7,253 nt of DNA. Origin: a virus. The notes below the pieces were generated by a model. It had not been told where the DNA came from. It did no database searches and saw only the letters and a list, made by a program, of their open reading frames with translations. Within the stretch, counting starts at the first letter, position 1. Each line of letters opens with the position of its first letter. Shown here one piece after another: positions 1-7,253 of the stretch. Position numbers and translations under genes: made by a program. The stretch lies in IMG/VR virus record IMGVR_UViG_2885989707_000002, positions 1 to 7,253 of that record. One strand, 5' to 3'.

Positions 1-80
1 CGTCCGGAAGATCGCGCCGATCCGGGCGGCATTGATCCATAATCCCCGTTATGCGAACGCCCCTCGACATCCCCACGCAC
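1..80. repeat. Terminal direct repeat, copy 1 (identical to 7174..7253)
   Basis: Base-by-base comparison shows 1-80 equals 7174-7253. This fits a circular-genome overlap or the start of a tandem second copy. Confidence 0.97.
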
Positions 81-281
81 CTGGTTAAAGACGCCACCCT
101 CTACGCGCCTTCCCGCGATCCTCTCGACGCGGTTTGCCACGTTCTGCAGGACTACCCTAGGCTTGTGTCCGAAGTGCGTGAACTGCGCCGCCGCGTGGCC
201 GATATCGACAACGAAAGCGCAGAGCTCGACCAGCTGGTTGCCAAGCTGCAGAATGTCGCTCGGCAGATCCTCGATATCTGA
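51..281 (+). CDS. Hypothetical 76-aa protein with a C-terminal coiled-coil-like helix
   Basis: Open frame with strong G/C third-position bias. The C-terminal half (VSEVRELRRRVADIDNESAELDQLVAKLQNVARQILDI) is heptad-like. There is no obvious Shine-Dalgarno, and the start codon lies inside a dif-like half site. Confidence 0.5.
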   Translation: MRTPLDIPTHLVKDATLYAPSRDPLDAVCHVLQDYPRLVSEVRELRRRVADIDNESAELDQLVAKLQNVARQILDI

Positions 282-299
282 TCTCTTCCAGGAACAACC

Positions 300-425
300 A
301 TGGCCAACCGAACAGTCAGTCGCTTCGTCAATACACCCGGCACGCCTGCGCCTGTTGTCATCGCTCTGAATGTCATTACCGGCCTGGCCATCCTCGGCAT
401 CATCGTCGCCGCCGTCTTCGGATAG
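300..425 (+). CDS. Hypothetical 41-aa single-pass membrane peptide (MANRTVSRFVNTPGTPAPVVIALNVITGLAILGIIVAAVFG)
   Basis: Absent from the ORF track because it is under 60 aa. AGGA at 290-293 lies 6 nt upstream of ATG 300. It has high GC3, one clear hydrophobic helix and a TAG stop at 423-425. Confidence 0.5.
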   Translation: MANRTVSRFVNTPGTPAPVVIALNVITGLAILGIIVAAVFG

Positions 426-497
426 CGCCTGGCCCTCAGCCTGACCACTCCACACTGATCACTCGCTTCTTCTTGAGTTGGCACGCTGTTTCAGGCC

Positions 498-561
498 GCG
501 AGTAGATCCACTCGCACATTTGCGATCGGCCCGAAGGGGCGAGGGGCGAAGCCCTGCTTTT
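498..561 (+). other. Cluster of short GC-rich hairpins; could be a weak + strand terminator, a minus-strand origin or a packaging element
   Basis: GCGAGT-agatcc-ACTCGC at 498-515. GCCC-gaag-GGGC at about 528-539. GGGC-gaa-GCCC at 544-554, followed by TGCTTTT (555-561). Confidence 0.3.
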
Positions 562-796: not shown

Positions 797-845
797 GAGT
801 CCACCTACTCTAATGGTGGACTCTTGTGCAATGACTGCACTTTTG
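797..845 (+). other. Ff-type plus-strand replication origin core: gpII nick-site hairpin plus an adjacent second hairpin
   Basis: GAGTCCAC-ctactctaat-GGTGGACTC (9-bp stem, 797-823) is followed by CTTGT and GTGCA-atgac-TGCAC (826-840), then TTTT. Against the recalled f1 origin (GAGTCCACGTTCTTTAATAGTGGACTCTTGT) I count 27 of 31 identical positions without gaps. The predicted nick lies between T811 and A812. Confidence 0.8.
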
Positions 846-846
846 A

Positions 847-1074
847 CTACTTCTTGACCGCCCTCGGAATCTCTAGTGAGAGCATGCCGTTTTCGCCTAA
901 TTCGACGTAACTGATTGATTCGCTTAACAAAAAATGTGCTAACTCGCTATCCCTGATCGGCTGGCGACCCTGCCTAACAAGCAACTTGTTGATTTCTATA
1001 CATTTTTTGCGCAAAAGCTCTTGCTCGTCATTGGTCAATCGCAGAGTTGCTGGCATCGAGCCACTACCTATCAT
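847..1074 (-). CDS. Small ribbon-helix-helix-like transcriptional regulator (putative phage repressor / immunity protein), 75 aa
   Basis: GGAGG (complement of 1082-1086) lies 7 nt upstream of the ATG at 1074. The N-terminal ATLRLTNDEQELLRKKCIEINKLL fits an RHH beta-strand plus helix pattern. It is transcribed divergently from gII, as repressors are in temperate inoviruses. Local GC is low, about 42%. Confidence 0.65.
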   Translation of the reverse strand: MIGSGSMPATLRLTNDEQELLRKKCIEINKLLVRQGRQPIRDSELAHFLLSESISYVELGENGMLSLEIPRAVKK

Positions 1075-1090
1075 CGGGAAACCTCCAAAA

Positions 1091-1109
1091 GTGTACGTGC
1101 ATGCATGTG
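1091..1109. promoter_or_regulatory. Operator-like tract 1: 19-nt perfect alternating purine-pyrimidine run containing TGCATGCATG (1098-1107)
   Basis: The sequence gtgtacgtgcatgcatgtg lies in the divergent intergenic region between the repressor and gII. It contains overlapping GCATGC/TGCATGCA palindromes. Confidence 0.5.
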
Positions 1110-1116
1110 ACTTGTG

Positions 1117-1144
1117 TTGACGTATGCTTGTTCACGCGTATACA
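1117..1144 (+). promoter_or_regulatory. Candidate sigma70-type promoter for gII (TTGACG, 16 nt, TATACA)
   Basis: The -35-like TTGACG is at 1117-1122 and the -10-like TATACA at 1139-1144, about 55 nt upstream of the gII ATG. Operator-like palindromes lie on both sides. Confidence 0.4.
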
Positions 1145-1162
1145 TTCCGCTCCATTGTGATT

Positions 1163-1178
1163 TGCATGCATGCATGCA
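1163..1178. promoter_or_regulatory. Operator-like tract 2: perfect 16-bp palindrome TGCATGCATGCATGCA, i.e. (TGCA)4
   Basis: Sits between the candidate gII promoter and the gII start. It is bracketed by the 7-bp inverted repeat ATTCCGC (1144-1150) / GCGGAAT (1185-1191). Confidence 0.55.
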
Positions 1179-1197
1179 ACAGAAGCGGAATCTGTGA

Positions 1198-2493
1198 ATG
1201 CTCGACAAAATCCACATGTTCATCCCGTTCAGGGTCGAAGCGATCACCGTCCACGGTGACGACGCAGGGCACCACTCCCTGTCGGTCGATCTCGAAAGCC
1301 TGGGCATTCCGCTTCGCGCTACCAGCGTGCTTGCAGACGGGAAGGGTGGATACATCGTCGAAGACCTTTCTCACGCCTGGGAGTCGCTGCCCACGTCGTT
1401 TACGCCTATGGCGGTCAAGGTGTTTCACCAGTCGCTAGGGAAGCGGATGAATCCCGGCGTTGAGCTGAAAGCCAGCCCGGCGAAGCTGCTCCAGGGGCAC
1501 AACGTGTTCGGCCCGACCTCGATCCGCATGGGCGGCGAGGTGATGCTCAAGTGGCTGGCCGGCTCGTACCCCGAACTGTTCGCTCAACTCGATTGGCAGA
1601 GCGCCCAGGTCTACAACATCGACTGCACTTTCTCGGCCCGCCTGCCTGACGAGCGCACCGCGCTCCAACTGATCCAAGCGCTGCGCGGTGTCAGCAACGG
1701 CCAAACCCGCAACCGTGGCGACGACTACCAAACAACAGCGTATTGGGGCAGCAAGGAAACCCGGCTCCGCAAGCTGAAGGCCTATCTCAAAGGCCCCGAA
1801 TTTCGCGGCGAAATCGACAAGGCCGTCAAGGCGGCGAGGGGAGGCAACCTTTCAGCCCGTCGCACCCTGGCGGTGCTGCAAAACCCCGACTTGCTCGCCT
1901 GGGCGGACAACCTGATCCGCCTCGAAGCGACCGTCATGCACCGCTGGCTAGACCGGCGAAACATCCCCTCCAAGTTGTGGGCGCTCTGCGACTACCAGGA
2001 ACACCTAGCCACCCAGGGAATTTGTTTTATCCAGTGGTGCTGGGAGCAAGTAACGAAAGAACTGTTTGCGGCCTTTGAAGGTATCTCCATGCGAGTAATT
2101 AATGATGAAAAAGTGCTGGCCGCACTTAAAGAGAAGTTCGCCAAGCCCGGTGGCCGGTGGACTAAGGCCAAAACTTGCAAGTCCACTGGTGTGCAAATAC
2201 CGCCCGTATTTGTTGCCGGTCCCGTCAATGAAAGTGTCGCCCTTAACCTGTTTCGTACCTATCGCAGCATCAAGGATTACGGATGGCAGGAAACAATGGA
2301 CTCAATGTCCCGTCGCACTTTCTACGATCACGTAGGCAAGATTTGCGAATGCGGTCTAAGTAAAGCGGCCCTCCAGAAGTTGAAGCAGGACGACCATAAA
2401 AACAACGTGGTGCCTATCCTGCGCTTCCTGCAAGTCGATTTCAGCGCCCAGCGTCCGAGCTGGTACCAAGAACCAAGCGTGGAGGCTGCCTGA
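1198..2493 (+). CDS. gII: Replication initiation protein, Ff gene II family (rolling-circle nickase, Phage_CRI type), 431 aa
   Basis: By eye it aligns end to end with recalled M13/f1 gpII. Matching blocks are HAWESLPTSF / HPFESLPTHY; ELKASPAKLLQGHNVFGP / EIKASPAKVLQGHNVYGT; IDCTFSARLP..GVSNGQTRN / IDATFSARAP..NVSNGQTKS; and NNVVPILRFLQVDFSAQRPSWYQEP / NNVVPLVRFINVDFSSQRPDWYNEP. Confidence 0.93.
   Translation: MLDKIHMFIPFRVEAITVHGDDAGHHSLSVDLESLGIPLRATSVLADGKGGYIVEDLSHAWESLPTSFTPMAVKVFHQSLGKRMNPGVELKASPAKLLQGHNVFGPTSIRMGGEVMLKWLAGSYPELFAQLDWQSAQVYNIDCTFSARLPDERTALQLIQALRGVSNGQTRNRGDDYQTTAYWGSKETRLRKLKAYLKGPEFRGEIDKAVKAARGGNLSARRTLAVLQNPDLLAWADNLIRLEATVMHRWLDRRNIPSKLWALCDYQEHLATQGICFIQWCWEQVTKELFAAFEGISMRVINDEKVLAALKEKFAKPGGRWTKAKTCKSTGVQIPPVFVAGPVNESVALNLFRTYRSIKDYGWQETMDSMSRRTFYDHVGKICECGLSKAALQKLKQDDHKNNVVPILRFLQVDFSAQRPSWYQEPSVEAA
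2089..2493 (+). CDS. gX: gX-like protein from in-frame internal initiation within gII (C-terminal 134 aa)
   Basis: The in-frame ATG at 2089 (..FEGISMRVINDEKVLAAL..) aligns with the gpX start of M13 (..FEGDSMNIYDDSAVLDAI..). GAAGG at 2077-2081 lies 7 nt upstream. Confidence 0.6.
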   Translation: MRVINDEKVLAALKEKFAKPGGRWTKAKTCKSTGVQIPPVFVAGPVNESVALNLFRTYRSIKDYGWQETMDSMSRRTFYDHVGKICECGLSKAALQKLKQDDHKNNVVPILRFLQVDFSAQRPSWYQEPSVEAA

Positions 2494-5416: not shown

Positions 5417-6570
5417 TGATTAACTTGATGCTGGGCGCCCCTGGTGGCGGTAAGTCGTATGAGTCTGTTGTTTATCATGTGCTGCCAGCGCTCAATCGCG
5501 GGCGCAAGATTATTACCAACTTGCCCCTCAATCTCGATGCCCTGGAAGCGTTCTGCCCTGGCACACGCCACTTGGTTGAGATCAGAACCGAGAAGTTCGA
5601 CGGCGGGCTTATTCGCCCCTTTTCGCGTGTCGAGCACTTCGGCGACGACTGGCGGCATGAGACTGAGGGCAATGTTGGCCCTCTCTATCTGATCGACGAA
5701 TGTCATTTGGCATTGCCACTTCGCGGAACTGATATAGCCATTGAAGAATGGTTTTCCCTTCACCGGCACGAAGGGGCCGATGTTCTGTTGATCACGCAAA
5801 GTTACGGCAAAATCAATAAGGCCATCCGCGACCTGGTGCAGATGGTTTACCTCTGCCGCAAAGCAACCATGCTCGGCTCGAACAGTCACTACATTCGCAA
5901 GGTTAAAGATGGTTTGCGTGGTGCTGAGGTCAACTCGGCTATTCGCAAGTACGAGAAGCGCTATTTTCCGTTGTATCGGAGCCACACGAAGTCCAGCTCG
6001 GCAGTTGAGGAATTCGAGGCTAGTGACGTGCGTTCCATCTGGTCAGGCTGGCACTTTCGTGGTGCCGTCCTTTGCCTTCTCGTTGGCCCGCTTTGGCTGT
6101 TCTGGCTCTATTCCGGCGACAGCGAAGCCAAGGTCGCAAAGCAGCCTGAGAACGTCAGCACAACGGTCACCGTCGAGCACGTTGACGGCACGGTCGAGAC
6201 GACCACTACGGGGCCAGATCTGCACGCTGATGTTCCGGCAGAGGAATCCCATGAGCAAGGGCAGGGGAGTGAGCCCCCGCCGCCCCCAAGCCATCCATTC
6301 TCTGGCTATACGTTCTTCCTGAGCGCCCAGATGTACACCAAGCGAGAATCTGGCGAGTATCACAAGGGTTACGTCGCTCTCGCGCAAAACGGCGTTGTAG
6401 TCCGTCAGATCCCTTTCGACGACTTGCGAGAAGCCGGCTACGTGATCACCTATCGGTCGCCGTCCGTTATCAGCGTGACATTCGACGGCAAAGACCTGGG
6501 CTATGTCGTATCCGCGCTACCTCAGATCTCGATGACGCCAGCCAACCAGATAGGGAAAACCGGCGGTTAA
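5416..6570 (+). CDS. gI: Assembly ATPase gI / zonula occludens toxin (Zot) family protein, 384 aa
   Basis: N-terminal Walker A GAPGGGKS (residues 7-14) and Walker B-like PLYLIDECH (89-97). A single TM helix AVLCLLVGPLWLFWLY spans about residues 217-232. The C-terminal periplasmic domain has a PPPPP tract. Its position after gVI is canonical. Confidence 0.92.
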   Translation: MINLMLGAPGGGKSYESVVYHVLPALNRGRKIITNLPLNLDALEAFCPGTRHLVEIRTEKFDGGLIRPFSRVEHFGDDWRHETEGNVGPLYLIDECHLALPLRGTDIAIEEWFSLHRHEGADVLLITQSYGKINKAIRDLVQMVYLCRKATMLGSNSHYIRKVKDGLRGAEVNSAIRKYEKRYFPLYRSHTKSSSAVEEFEASDVRSIWSGWHFRGAVLCLLVGPLWLFWLYSGDSEAKVAKQPENVSTTVTVEHVDGTVETTTTGPDLHADVPAEESHEQGQGSEPPPPPSHPFSGYTFFLSAQMYTKRESGEYHKGYVALAQNGVVVRQIPFDDLREAGYVITYRSPSVISVTFDGKDLGYVVSALPQISMTPANQIGKTGG

Positions 6571-6739: not shown

Positions 6740-6753
6740 TGCATGGGCATGCA
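6740..6753. promoter_or_regulatory. Operator-like inverted repeat TGCATG-gg-CATGCA overlapping the start codon of the 62-aa ORF
   Basis: It has the same TGCATG/CATGCA half-sites as the tracts at 1098-1107 and 1163-1178, and lies at the head of the accessory cassette. Confidence 0.4.
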
Positions 6754-7138: not shown

Positions 7139-7232
7139 GCTTCGCATAATGAACAGGGATTCATGGTTAATGCCGTCCGGAAGATCGCGCCGATCCGGGC
7201 GGCATTGATCCATAATCCCCGTTATGCGAACG
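7139..7232 (+). other. Candidate XerC/XerD-dependent attP: two inverted dif-like sites able to fold into an imperfect hairpin of about 90 nt
   Basis: Site 1 (+, 7139-7171) reads GCTTCGCATAA-tgaacagggat-TCATGGTTAAT. Site 2 (read on the minus strand of 7205-7232, equal to 32-59) reads CGTTCGCATAA-cgggga-TTATGGATCAA. Compare E. coli dif GGTGCGCATAA-TGTATA-TTATGTTAAAT. The XerC-type arm TTCGCATAA is exact in both copies. Confidence 0.55.
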
Positions 7233-7253
7233 CCCCTCGACATCCCCACGCAC
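7174..7253. repeat. Terminal direct repeat, copy 2 (identical to 1..80)
   Basis: Same 80 nt as the window start. It includes the first 30 nt of the ORF that starts at 51. Confidence 0.97.

What the first reader, a model, noticed from the sequence alone, without database searches (positions are those of the whole stretch)
1075..1197. Switch region with TGCATGCA palindromes that are also tetranucleotide repeats and alternating Pu-Py (Z-prone) tracts
The 123-bp divergent intergenic region between the RHH repressor and gII carries two related elements. One is a 19-nt perfect alternating purine-pyrimidine run (1091-1109) containing TGCATGCATG. The other is a perfect 16-bp palindrome, TGCATGCATGCATGCA (1163-1178). 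They flank a plausible gII promoter (TTGACG-16-TATACA). The second element is nested in a 7-bp inverted repeat (ATTCCGC / GCGGAAT). RHH dimers typically bind short tandem or inverted repeats, so these are natural operator candidates. The (TGCA)4 tract could also change length by slippage or form a cruciform or Z-DNA in supercoiled RF, which would couple the lysogeny/replication switch to DNA topology.
Basis: partly seen in the sequence, partly recalled or inferred. Interest (0 to 1): 0.62.

Follow-up and report, generated by a model that had tools for sequence, protein, structure and literature searches.

The report
Operator sites of a filamentous-phage repressor
The TGCATGCA tracts between the small divergent regulator gene and the replication gene of this Pseudomonas filamentous phage are most likely that regulator's binding sites for shutting off replication, an ordinary phage immunity switch run by a repressor family nobody has annotated, and not a slippage or DNA-shape switch.

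Summary
All named elements are at the stated coordinates. The palindrome is in fact 18 bp (1162-1179) and the outer inverted repeat 8 bp.

Comparison with over 100 related inovirus loci shows a conserved three-site layout around a conserved promoter (TTGACG-16-TATACA):
- O1 lies upstream of the -35.
- O2 lies in the promoter spacer.
- O3, (TGCA)4, lies downstream of the -10.

These sites stay with the small divergent gene, not with gII. Sister phages with 74-81% identical gII carry cI-type HTH repressors and unrelated operators in the same slot. The same module also precedes a highly divergent gII-family gene. The box sequence changes with the repressor's N-terminal strand: PATLRL gives TGCATGCA, PTNLRL gives GTGTGCA, and AITVRL gives TGTATACA.

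Copy number is fixed: four units in 30 of 32 distinct sequences and five in 2. Slippage is therefore not supported. Z-DNA or cruciform formation is not needed and looks energetically unfavourable. The Ff-type plus-strand origin is elsewhere (797-827).

The RHH fold is plausible from sequence pattern and weak NikA/TraM hits, but no significant match was found.

First readers of this scan have noted the same switch type in other genomes.

Verdict: a new member of a known kind, of moderate interest.

The parts
847..1074 (-). Gene for the 75-aa small regulator, the putative immunity repressor. An alternative start at 1056 gives 69 aa.
   Evidence: ORF. Its SD (GGAGG, 1082-1086 on the minus strand) lies 7 nt before the ATG. 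It has 43 close homologs, all 'hypothetical', in Pseudomonas and 161 representatives at 50% clustering. It matches PHROG 5642, unknown function. The AF2 model has pLDDT 89, with an extended segment at 8-14, helices 15-34 and 42-56, and a small hairpin at 57-67. In sister phages the same slot holds cI/Cro-type HTH repressors.
1091..1109 (.). O1, the distal operator: a 19-nt alternating R-Y tract. The conserved core TACGTGCATGCATGTGA (1094-1110) contains one perfect TGCATGCA box at 1098-1105. It lies upstream of the gII -35 and 5-25 nt upstream of the repressor's SD.
   Evidence: Positions 1094-1113 are invariant or at least 90% conserved in 35 distinct relatives.
1105..1114 (+). Copy 1 of a conserved direct 10-mer (ATGTGACTTG) abutting O1. 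Function unknown.
   Evidence: Both copies change together in relatives: ATGTTACTTG twice in L089, and ATGTAATTTG or ATGTTATTTG twice in Acinetobacter phages.
1117..1122 (+). -35 hexamer TTGACG of the gII promoter.
   Evidence: At least 90% conserved.
1120..1127 (.). O2, the central operator-like element in the promoter spacer. It is ACGTATGC here, a degenerate form. Most PAT-type relatives have ACGCATGCA, and PTN-type relatives have ACGTGTGCR.
   Evidence: (an R-Y run at the same offset in all relatives, changing with repressor type).
1139..1146 (+). -10 region of the gII promoter: TATACA at 1139-1144, or TACATT at 1141-1146.
   Evidence: Positions 1138-1146 are conserved. The transcription start was not mapped.
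1144..1151 (.). Left arm (ATTCCGCT) of the outer inverted repeat.
   Evidence: I16. Only partly conserved.
1156..1165 (+). Copy 2 of the direct 10-mer (TTGTGATTTG) abutting O3.
1162..1179 (.). O3, the proximal operator: an 18-bp perfect palindrome containing (TGCA)4 at 1163-1178, which equals two abutting TGCATGCA boxes. It lies downstream of the -10, in the presumed leader of gII, and ends 19 nt before the ATG.
   Evidence: I9. At least 90% conserved at all 16 positions. Unit number is fixed at four in 30 of 32 distinct sequences.
1184..1191 (.). Right arm (AGCGGAAT) of the outer inverted repeat. It overlaps the SD-like GGAA of gII.
   Evidence: I16. Not conserved in sequence. Flank complementarity is significant in only 5 of 13 lineages.
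1198..2493 (+). gII replication initiator, the gene controlled by the switch.
   Evidence: Pfam Phage_CRI at 2e-48 and G2P_X_C at 1.5e-13. The start ATGCTCGACAAA is conserved in 73 loci.
6740..6753 (.). Possible extra operator, TGCATG-gg-CATGCA, overlapping the start codon of a 62-aa accessory ORF.
   Evidence: About 0.002 such sites are expected by chance in 7.2 kb (my arithmetic). The cassette is absent from fetched relatives, so conservation could not be tested.

Best explanation
Region 1075-1197 is the control region of an inovirus immunity module. The small protein encoded divergently at 847-1074 binds, probably as dimers that assemble side by side, to three related alternating pyrimidine-purine sites built on the 8-bp palindrome TGCATGCA.

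The three sites:
- O1 (1094-1110) lies just upstream of the -35.
- O2 (1120-1127) lies in the spacer of the gII promoter.
- O3 (1162-1179, two abutting boxes) lies just downstream of the -10.

Occupancy of O2 and O3 would block RNA polymerase at the gII promoter (TTGACG-16-TATACA). This would keep the replication initiator off in the integrated or carried state and give immunity against phages with the same module. O1 lies next to the repressor's own ribosome-binding site and most likely autoregulates the repressor gene.

Shown here: the elements, their conservation, their fixed positions relative to a conserved promoter, their linkage to the repressor gene and not to gII, and the co-variation of box sequence with the repressor's N-terminal strand.

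Inferred: actual binding, stoichiometry, the transcription starts, and which site controls which promoter.
For: 1. Genome context. The window is a circular 7.18-kb inovirus with gII, G5P, coat genes and Zot. Its Ff-type plus-strand origin is at 797-827.

2. Footprint. In 35 distinct relatives (mean pairwise identity 0.72, minimum 0.42), the invariant blocks are exactly O1, the -35 with O2, the -10, and the 10-mer with O3. Positions 1075-1090, 1128-1137 and 1179-1197 drift.

3. Module behaviour. Phages with 74-81% identical gII carry, in the same slot, HTH_3 cI/Cro-type repressors or other small proteins with entirely different repeats. Conversely, the same O1-promoter-O3 module sits in front of a gII-family gene with no BLASTP-detectable similarity to this one (E = 0.18).

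4. Co-variation of motif with repressor strand:
- 34 intergenic regions next to PA[TS][LI]RL repressors carry 3.4-4.0 TGCATGCA and no GTGTGCA.
- PTNIRL repressors carry 3.0 GTGTGCA.
- AITVR[LM]N repressors carry TGTATACA.
- KALRIK repressors carry GTTAAC.
- The three-site layout is kept in every class.

5. Protein pattern. Across 82 diverse members, positions 11 and 13 are 100% hydrophobic. Position 12 is Arg in 71 of 82. Positions 10 and 14 are polar and variable. Position 43 is Ser or Thr in 77 of 82 and sits before helix 2. This is the pattern of a DNA-reading ribbon strand.

6. Uniqueness. The 12-mer is unique in the 5.5-Mb host genome and the repressor is single-copy.

7. Lysogeny is plausible. 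The closest relative sits as two copies 7.6 kb apart on a 497-kb Pseudomonas chromosome contig.
Against:
- No sigma-70-like promoter for the repressor gene was found on the minus strand (and inspection), so the autoregulation step is a guess.
- The protein has no significant match to any known DNA-binding family or fold.
- O2 is degenerate in this particular phage.
- The O1-O3 centre-to-centre distance (69 bp, about 6.6 helical turns) is not in helical phase, so simple looping is not obvious.
- The conserved direct 10-mer next to O1 and O3 is unexplained. It could mean a second factor binds here.
Confidence: 0.8

Rival explanations
1. The (TGCA)4 tract is a contingency repeat. Slipped-strand mispairing changes the unit number and so switches gII expression or immunity on and off.
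For: It is a perfect tetranucleotide repeat. Two of 32 distinct relatives carry a fifth unit: L090 has TGCATGCATGCACGCATGCA and L317 has (TGCA)4TGCG.
Against: Thirty of 32 distinct sequences have exactly four units, 28 of them perfect. All other variation is by single substitutions that keep the 16-bp length. Four units is far below the tract lengths of known phase-variable tetranucleotide loci (established knowledge). The tract is not in a coding frame or in a promoter spacer, where length would matter directly.
Confidence: 0.03
2. The alternating purine-pyrimidine tracts and the palindrome act through DNA structure. Negative supercoiling, for example between the two divergent promoters or in the replicative form, flips them to Z-DNA or extrudes a cruciform. 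This changes promoter activity or repressor affinity, so the switch senses DNA topology.
For: The three longest R-Y runs of the genome cluster here. In the Pseudomonas and Halieaceae classes the operators stay alternating although their sequence differs, and most differences between classes are transitions that preserve alternation. Divergent transcription is known to generate local negative supercoils (established knowledge).
Against: A two-state estimate gives a critical superhelical density of about -0.056 for Z-DNA and -0.060 to -0.083 for the 18-bp cruciform in a 7.2-kb circle (parameters recalled from the literature). This is well beyond the usual unconstrained level in cells, about -0.03 (established knowledge). 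Operators of the Acinetobacter and Neisseria classes have only 8-11-nt alternating runs, and one class (GTTAACGCGTTAAC) is not alternating. Alternation is therefore not a family requirement. Protein recognition explains the co-variation with the repressor strand, and DNA structure alone does not.
Confidence: 0.06
3. The palindrome together with the outer inverted repeat (1144-1151 / 1184-1191) forms a hairpin in the viral single strand or in the gII mRNA. This hairpin has its own function, for example masking the gII ribosome-binding site or acting in complementary-strand priming.
For: The single-stranded DNA fold of 1136-1200 is -12.3 kcal/mol with z = -2.2. Flanks of O3 are more complementary than shuffled flanks in 5 of 13 lineages, with arms of different sequence. 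My Fisher combination of the per-lineage values gives about 4e-4. The right arm overlaps the SD-like GGAA.
Against: The complementarity is absent in 8 of 13 lineages, including the largest group with the alternative gII, and the right arm is not conserved. With the predicted promoter, the left arm lies at or before the transcription start, so it would not be in the mRNA (inference). The predicted leader RNA is no more structured than shuffles, z = +0.45. Part of the signal may simply be a TTCC after the -10 facing a GGAA Shine-Dalgarno.
Confidence: 0.08
4. The palindrome is the gII nicking site or plus-strand origin, as expected for a hairpin next to a rolling-circle initiator gene.
For: It is a perfect palindrome directly upstream of gII.
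Against: The Ff origin core aligns to window 797-827 (GAGTCCACCTACTCTAATGGTGGACTCTTGT). The fd record's 'origin of viral strand synthesis' (5782) corresponds to T811/A812. The palindrome changes with the repressor type while gII stays 74-81% identical.
Confidence: 0.01

Closest known systems
CTXphi rstR / ig-2 / rstA immunity module of Vibrio cholerae (from established knowledge, not tested here)
   Same: A small repressor gene is transcribed divergently from the replication-initiator gene of an integrase-less, XerCD-type inovirus. Several operator sites overlap the replication-gene promoter. The repressor and intergenic region vary as one block among otherwise similar phages, giving heteroimmune types. 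That block behaviour was seen here.
   Different: RstR is a helix-turn-helix protein, whereas this protein has a strand-helix-helix pattern and no detectable homology. CTXphi's promoter is also under LexA. This module has no CTGT-N8-ACAG box anywhere in the phage, although the HTH-type sister module does.
MetJ and its tandem 8-bp palindromic 'metboxes' (AGACGTCT); also the Arc and Mnt repressors of phage P22 and the omega repressor with heptad repeats (established knowledge)
   Same: Operators are built from short palindromic or repeated units placed head to tail. Here that is an 8-bp palindrome, TGCATGCA, present as two abutting copies at O3 and one at O1. These would suit small dimeric ribbon-helix-helix proteins that bind side by side and cooperatively.
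   Different: There is no sequence or fold match to MetJ, Arc, Mnt, CopG or omega. Helix 1 is unusually long at 20 residues, the helix-helix loop is longer than the classical G-x-S/T/N turn, and there is an extra C-terminal hairpin. No co-repressor is implied.
NikA / TraM-type relaxosome RHH proteins
   Same: These give the only recurring weak hits. NikA (2ba3) matches at E = 0.61, aligned over the strand and the start of helix 1. Pfam NikA-like matches 2 of 82 members at E = 0.011, and Tra_M matches 1 of 82 at E = 0.007.
   Different: All hits are below family thresholds, and the context is a phage immunity slot, not a conjugative relaxosome.
Integrase-less small Pseudomonas inoviruses, groups 4-7 (PMC10675462); Pseudomonas phage NEU2023 (PQ144888); phage blackswan219-1 (MZ474489)
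   Same: They share the genome type. NEU2023 carries a PTNIRL-type member of the same repressor family with GTGTGCA-type sites. The paper notes a repressor-like gene 'possibly involved in lysogeny regulation'.
   Different: No operators, promoter or specificity classes were described there. Blackswan219-1 has the HTH-type module.

Membership tests
Phage immunity (repressor-operator) module of the CTXphi rstR-rstA type | A small regulator gene is transcribed divergently from the replication-initiator gene. | tested here: met
   ORFs at 847-1074 (-) and 1198-2493 (+). gII is identified by Pfam.
Phage immunity (repressor-operator) module of the CTXphi rstR-rstA type | Repeated, related sites overlap or flank the promoter of the controlled gene. 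| tested here: met
   O1, O2 and O3 surround TTGACG-16-TATACA. They are conserved as blocks.
Phage immunity (repressor-operator) module of the CTXphi rstR-rstA type | The regulator and its sites are exchanged together among related phages, giving heteroimmune types. | tested here: met
   The same module also precedes a very divergent gII.
Phage immunity (repressor-operator) module of the CTXphi rstR-rstA type | The protein binds the sites and represses the promoter. | not testable with these tools
   This needs EMSA, footprinting or reporter assays. The RNA-seq route was closed.
Ribbon-helix-helix (RHH) superfamily | An N-terminal amphipathic beta-strand with alternating buried hydrophobic and exposed polar or basic residues. 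| tested here: met
   Positions 11 and 13 are 100% hydrophobic. Position 12 is Arg in 71 of 82. Positions 10 and 14 are polar and variable. AF2 gives an extended segment at 8-14 with high confidence.
Ribbon-helix-helix (RHH) superfamily | Two helices follow the strand, with an S/T/N cap at the start of helix 2. | tested here: met
   Helices at 15-34 and 42-56. Ser or Thr at position 43 in 77 of 82. The loop is longer than the canonical turn.
Ribbon-helix-helix (RHH) superfamily | A significant sequence or structure match to a recognised RHH family. | tested here: inconclusive
   There is no Pfam, NCBIfam or PDB hit at threshold. The best Foldseek values are E = 0.21-0.28 against PDB and 0.12 against BFVD. 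Only weak NikA/TraM hints exist.
Ribbon-helix-helix (RHH) superfamily | An intertwined dimer whose two strands form the DNA-reading sheet. | not testable with these tools
   Only monomer prediction is available.
Phase-variable simple-sequence (contingency) repeat | The unit number differs among close relatives or within populations. | tested here: not met
   Thirty of 32 distinct sequences have four units and 2 have five. Variation is by substitution.
Z-DNA- or cruciform-forming regulatory tract | An alternating purine-pyrimidine run or perfect palindrome of sufficient length. | tested here: met
   Runs of 19 and 16 nt and an 18-bp palindrome.
Z-DNA- or cruciform-forming regulatory tract | The transition is accessible at physiological superhelical density. 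| tested here: inconclusive
   A rough estimate gives a critical sigma of -0.056 to -0.083.
Ff-type plus-strand origin (gII nick site) | Similarity to the Ff origin core hairpin and nick sequence. | tested here: not met
   The origin core maps to 797-827, outside the finding.

The most novel reading that the evidence does not exclude
The operators of this repressor family are held to alternating pyrimidine-purine sequence because binding is coupled to a supercoil-driven structural change (Z-DNA or hairpin extrusion) in the short region between two divergent promoters. The switch would then read the topological state of the phage DNA, replicative form versus integrated prophage, in addition to repressor concentration.
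Probability: 0.05. Interest if true: 0.75.

Novelty: new member of a known kind. Interest (0 to 1): 0.4.

Why it matters
It gives a concrete, testable map of the immunity switch of the small integrase-less Pseudomonas inoviruses: three operators, a promoter and a repressor. This group was described only at genome level in 2023.

It also assigns a probable function to a protein family that is 'unknown function' in PHROGs and absent from Pfam. The family has 161 representatives at 50% clustering and occurs in inoviruses of Pseudomonas, Stutzerimonas, Acinetobacter, Halieaceae and Neisseria.

The natural series of repressor-strand variants with matching operator variants could explain which filamentous prophages exclude each other. 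It also offers a set of small, apparently orthogonal repressor/operator pairs. Mechanistically it is an ordinary repressor-operator system.

Tried and rejected
Fold and family assignment of the 75-aa protein. None of these reached significance:
- Pfam, NCBIfam and PHROGs (17, which has only an unknown-function family).
- PDB by sequence and by three profiles. The A2 profile hit only designed helical-repeat proteins, which I take to be a composition artefact.
- Foldseek of two AF2 models against PDB and BFVD.

Origin hypothesis: rejected, because the Ff origin core maps to 797-827 (22, 69, 70).

Leader RNA structure: the fold is not unusual, z = +0.45 (78).

Outer inverted repeat: the shuffled-flank test gave a mixed result, so I do not build on it.

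Promoter for the repressor gene: the scanner found none. My hand search of the minus strand found only weak candidates that are not conserved, so it is left open.

The 6740-6753 site: its ORF is absent from all fetched loci and from the genomes of the three closest relatives, so conservation could not be tested.

LexA box: none in the phage.

Literature: no paper in the library holds TGCATGCATGCA together with 'operator'. The Pf4r, PMBT54 and new-Pf-group papers do not describe this module.

Full report
**What the window is.** The 7253-base window is one whole contig of a 5.49-Mb assembly. Its first 73 or so bases repeat at the end, so it is a circular 7.18-kb molecule. It encodes:
- a gII-type rolling-circle initiator at 1198-2493 (Pfam Phage_CRI 2e-48, G2P_X_C 1.5e-13);
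- a G5P-like single-strand DNA-binding protein;
- small coat proteins, and a DUF2523 (gVI-like) protein;
- a Zot/gI assembly ATPase.

It is therefore an inovirus. The only substantial minus-strand gene is the 75-aa ORF at 847-1074, back to back with gII across 123 bp. Close homologs of that ORF are 'hypothetical proteins' of Pseudomonas. The closest relative lies as two copies 7.6 kb apart on a 497-kb contig of Pseudomonas sp. LRF_L74. Phages of this type can therefore sit in the chromosome.

**The observation.**
- The palindrome is 18 bp, TTGCATGCATGCATGCAA, at 1162-1179.
- The outer inverted repeat has 8-bp arms, at 1144-1151 and 1184-1191.
- The promoter scanner prefers TACATT (1141-1146, 18-bp spacer) to TATACA (1139-1144, 16-bp spacer) as the -10.

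The clustering is not chance:
- Exact TGCATGCA occurs four times in the phage, all between 1098 and 1178.
- The 12-mer TGCATGCATGCA is unique in the whole host assembly.
- The three longest alternating purine-pyrimidine runs of the phage (19, 16 and 13 nt) all fall in 1091-1178.

**It is not the origin.** Window 797-827 (GAGTCCACCTACTCTAATGGTGGACTCTTGT) aligns with the f1/M13/fd origin core. The fd record's 'origin of viral strand synthesis' at 5782 corresponds to a nick between T811 and A812. The origin therefore lies on the far side of the small gene, about 350 bp from the palindrome.

**Comparative evidence, step 1: the region is a swappable module.**
- A scan with gII returned 73 viral loci at 60-81% protein identity.
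- The first codons of gII are nearly identical in all of them, but the 140 bases upstream fall into several unrelated types, each with its own divergent gene.
- One type has a 118-aa HTH_3 cI/Cro-like repressor and a CTGT-N8-ACAG LexA-type box.
- Another has a 66-aa protein with GTAACGCGTTAC repeats.
- The window's type has the 69-75-aa protein with TGCATGCA tracts.
- Conversely, the window's type of control region is also found, almost unchanged, in front of a gII-family gene (starting MFIDWL...) with no BLASTP-detectable similarity to the window's gII (E = 0.18).

The tracts therefore belong with the small gene and not with gII.

**Step 2: a footprint.** I took 35 distinct control regions next to PA[TS][LI]RL-type proteins (mean pairwise identity 0.72, minimum 0.42). 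The invariant or at least 90% conserved blocks are:
- 1094-1113 (O1 plus a 10-mer);
- 1114-1127 (the -35 TTGACG and the start of the spacer, O2);
- 1138-1150 (the -10);
- 1154-1178 (a second 10-mer copy plus O3).

The leader of the small gene (1075-1090), the middle of the spacer (1128-1137) and the gII leader after O3 (1179-1197) are free to vary. In every relative there are three alternating R-Y runs at the same offsets: upstream of the -35, immediately after the -35, and 15-20 nt after the -10. In this phage the middle one is degenerate (ACGTATGC). In most relatives it reads ACGCATGCA.

**Step 3: box sequence follows the protein.** A family-wide scan with the protein alignment found members in inoviruses of Pseudomonas, Stutzerimonas, Acinetobacter, Halieaceae and Neisseria. 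The same three-site layout is kept but the sequence changes. Counts per control region are:

| Repressor strand | Distinct regions | Motif per region |
|---|---|---|
| PA[TS][LI]RL | 34 | 3.4-4.0 TGCATGCA, no GTGTGCA |
| PTNIRL | 3 | 3.0 GTGTGCA |
| AITVR[LM]N | 19 | TGTATACA |
| KALRIK | 4 | GTTAAC |

The strand residues that differ are those expected to face DNA. Across 82 diverse members, positions 11 and 13 are always hydrophobic. Position 12 is Arg in 71 of 82. Positions 10 and 14 are polar and variable.

**The protein.** AlphaFold gives a confident monomer (pLDDT 89 with the deep alignment). It has an extended N-terminal segment (8-14), a 20-residue helix, a loop, a second helix starting after a conserved Ser, and a small C-terminal hairpin. 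That is compatible with a ribbon-helix-helix protein, whose sheet forms only in the dimer. However, nothing significant was found in Pfam, NCBIfam, PDB sequences or profiles, or Foldseek. The only recurring hints are to RHH relaxosome proteins:
- NikA at E = 0.61, aligned on the strand and helix 1;
- Pfam NikA-like in 2 of 82 members at E = 0.011, and Tra_M in 1 of 82.

I call the fold 'RHH-like, unproven'. The family is small but real, with 161 representatives at 50% clustering, and it is unannotated (PHROG 5642, unknown function).

**Slippage.** A pattern anchored on the conserved left flank was scanned through viral and metagenome contigs. It gave 32 distinct sequences in phage context:
- 28 have perfect (TGCA)4;
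- 2 have TGCATGCATGCGTGCA and 1 has TGCATGCATGCACGCA(T), which are four units with one substitution;
- 1 has a fifth unit, (TGCA)4TGCG.

L090 likewise has five units, TGCATGCATGCACGCATGCA. None has three units. The 16-bp length is therefore under constraint and variation is by substitution. A contingency-repeat role is not supported.

**DNA structure.**
- A rough two-state estimate puts the critical superhelical density at about -0.056 for a B-to-Z flip of either tract. For extrusion of the 18-bp palindrome in a 7.2-kb circle it is -0.060 to -0.083 (energy parameters recalled from the literature, not from a tool). This is beyond the usual unconstrained level in cells.
- Alternation is strong in the Pseudomonas and Halieaceae classes. 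It is short (8-11 nt) in the Acinetobacter and Neisseria classes and absent in the GTTAAC class.
- The structural idea is not excluded, especially transiently between divergent promoters. It is not needed, and it does not explain the co-variation with the protein.

**The outer inverted repeat.**
- The flanks of O3 are more complementary than shuffled flanks in 5 of 13 lineages, with arms of different sequence. They are not in the other 8.
- The right arm is not conserved and overlaps the SD-like GGAA.
- With the predicted promoter the left arm would lie at or before the transcription start.
- The predicted leader RNA is not unusually structured.

I treat this as a lineage-specific feature of uncertain meaning.

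**Mechanism proposed.**
- Dimers of the small protein bind the TGCATGCA boxes: one box at O1, a degenerate one at O2, and two abutting boxes at O3. This is in the manner of small repressors that bind tandem short palindromes, as MetJ does on metboxes (a resemblance from established knowledge, not homology).
- O2 and O3 overlap and follow the gII promoter core and would block initiation or early elongation.
- O1 lies beside the repressor's own translation start region and probably autoregulates.

The binding, the stoichiometry, the transcription starts and the autoregulation are inferred. The closest functional analogue is the rstR / ig-2 / rstA module of CTXphi.

**Status in the literature and in this scan.** The small integrase-less Pseudomonas inoviruses were described in 2023, with a 'repressor-like' gene noted but no operators (PMC10675462). 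No paper in the library mentions the motif as an operator. First readers of this scan have noted the same switch type (GCATGC palindromes and ATGTGATTTG repeats about 50 bp apart) in other genomes. Those notes are unverified and agree with what I found independently.

**Verdict.** The operator reading is well supported by comparative evidence (confidence about 0.8). The RHH label is plausible. Slippage is not supported, and topological coupling is unlikely. This is a new member of a known kind of system, of moderate interest.

Noticed in passing
window 797-830: This is an Ff-type plus-strand origin core (GAGTCCACCTACTCTAATGGTGGACTCTTGT). Alignment to the fd record's rep_origin predicts a nick at T811/A812. 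It is also conserved in phage blackswan219-1.
   Followed up: yes
window 1105-1114 and 1156-1165: A direct 10-mer, ATGTGAyTTG, occurs twice 51 bp apart, once abutting O1 and once abutting O3. Both copies change together in relatives: ATGTTACTTG twice in L089, and ATGTAATTTG or ATGTTATTTG twice in Acinetobacter phages. It may be part of the operators or a site for a second factor. Unexplained.
   Followed up: partly
window 6740-6753: TGCATG-gg-CATGCA overlaps the start codon of a 62-aa accessory ORF and may be a fourth binding site for the same protein. The cassette is absent from all fetched relatives, so conservation could not be tested.
   Followed up: partly
window 7141-7253 and 1-60: Inverted TTCGCATAA ... 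TTATGCGAA arms surround a long imperfect palindrome. This looks like a CTXphi-style folded dif-like attachment site, and the genome has no integrase.
   Followed up: no
L003, L005, L012 and L001 (blackswan219-1), about 100-120 nt upstream of gII: The HTH-type sister module carries ACTGTGGTTCCGTACAGT, a CTGT-N8-ACAG LexA-type box. The window's module and whole genome have none. The two module types may therefore differ in SOS inducibility.
   Followed up: partly
L113, L126, L129-L133, L306, L309 and others: The same repressor-operator module precedes a 376-402-aa gII-family gene (starting MFIDWL...). Pfam recognises it as Phage_CRI/G2P_X_C, but it has no BLASTP-detectable similarity to the window's gII. 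This is mosaic exchange of the immunity module between replicon types.
   Followed up: yes
L087 / L088 (Pseudomonas sp. LRF_L74, NZ_CBFFRH010000005.1, around 156.4-167.2 kb): Two copies of the closest relative (repressor 93% identical, identical operators) lie 7.6 kb apart on a chromosomal contig. This is a tandem prophage array, as in CTXphi lysogens.
   Followed up: no
G000 contigs C32 (1-939) and C57 (about 25.6-26.7 kb): The host assembly holds further stretches 81-88% identical to window 1-561 and 6427-6482. These are probably parts of other inovirus copies. They carry neither this repressor nor the TGCATGCATGCA motif.
   Followed up: no
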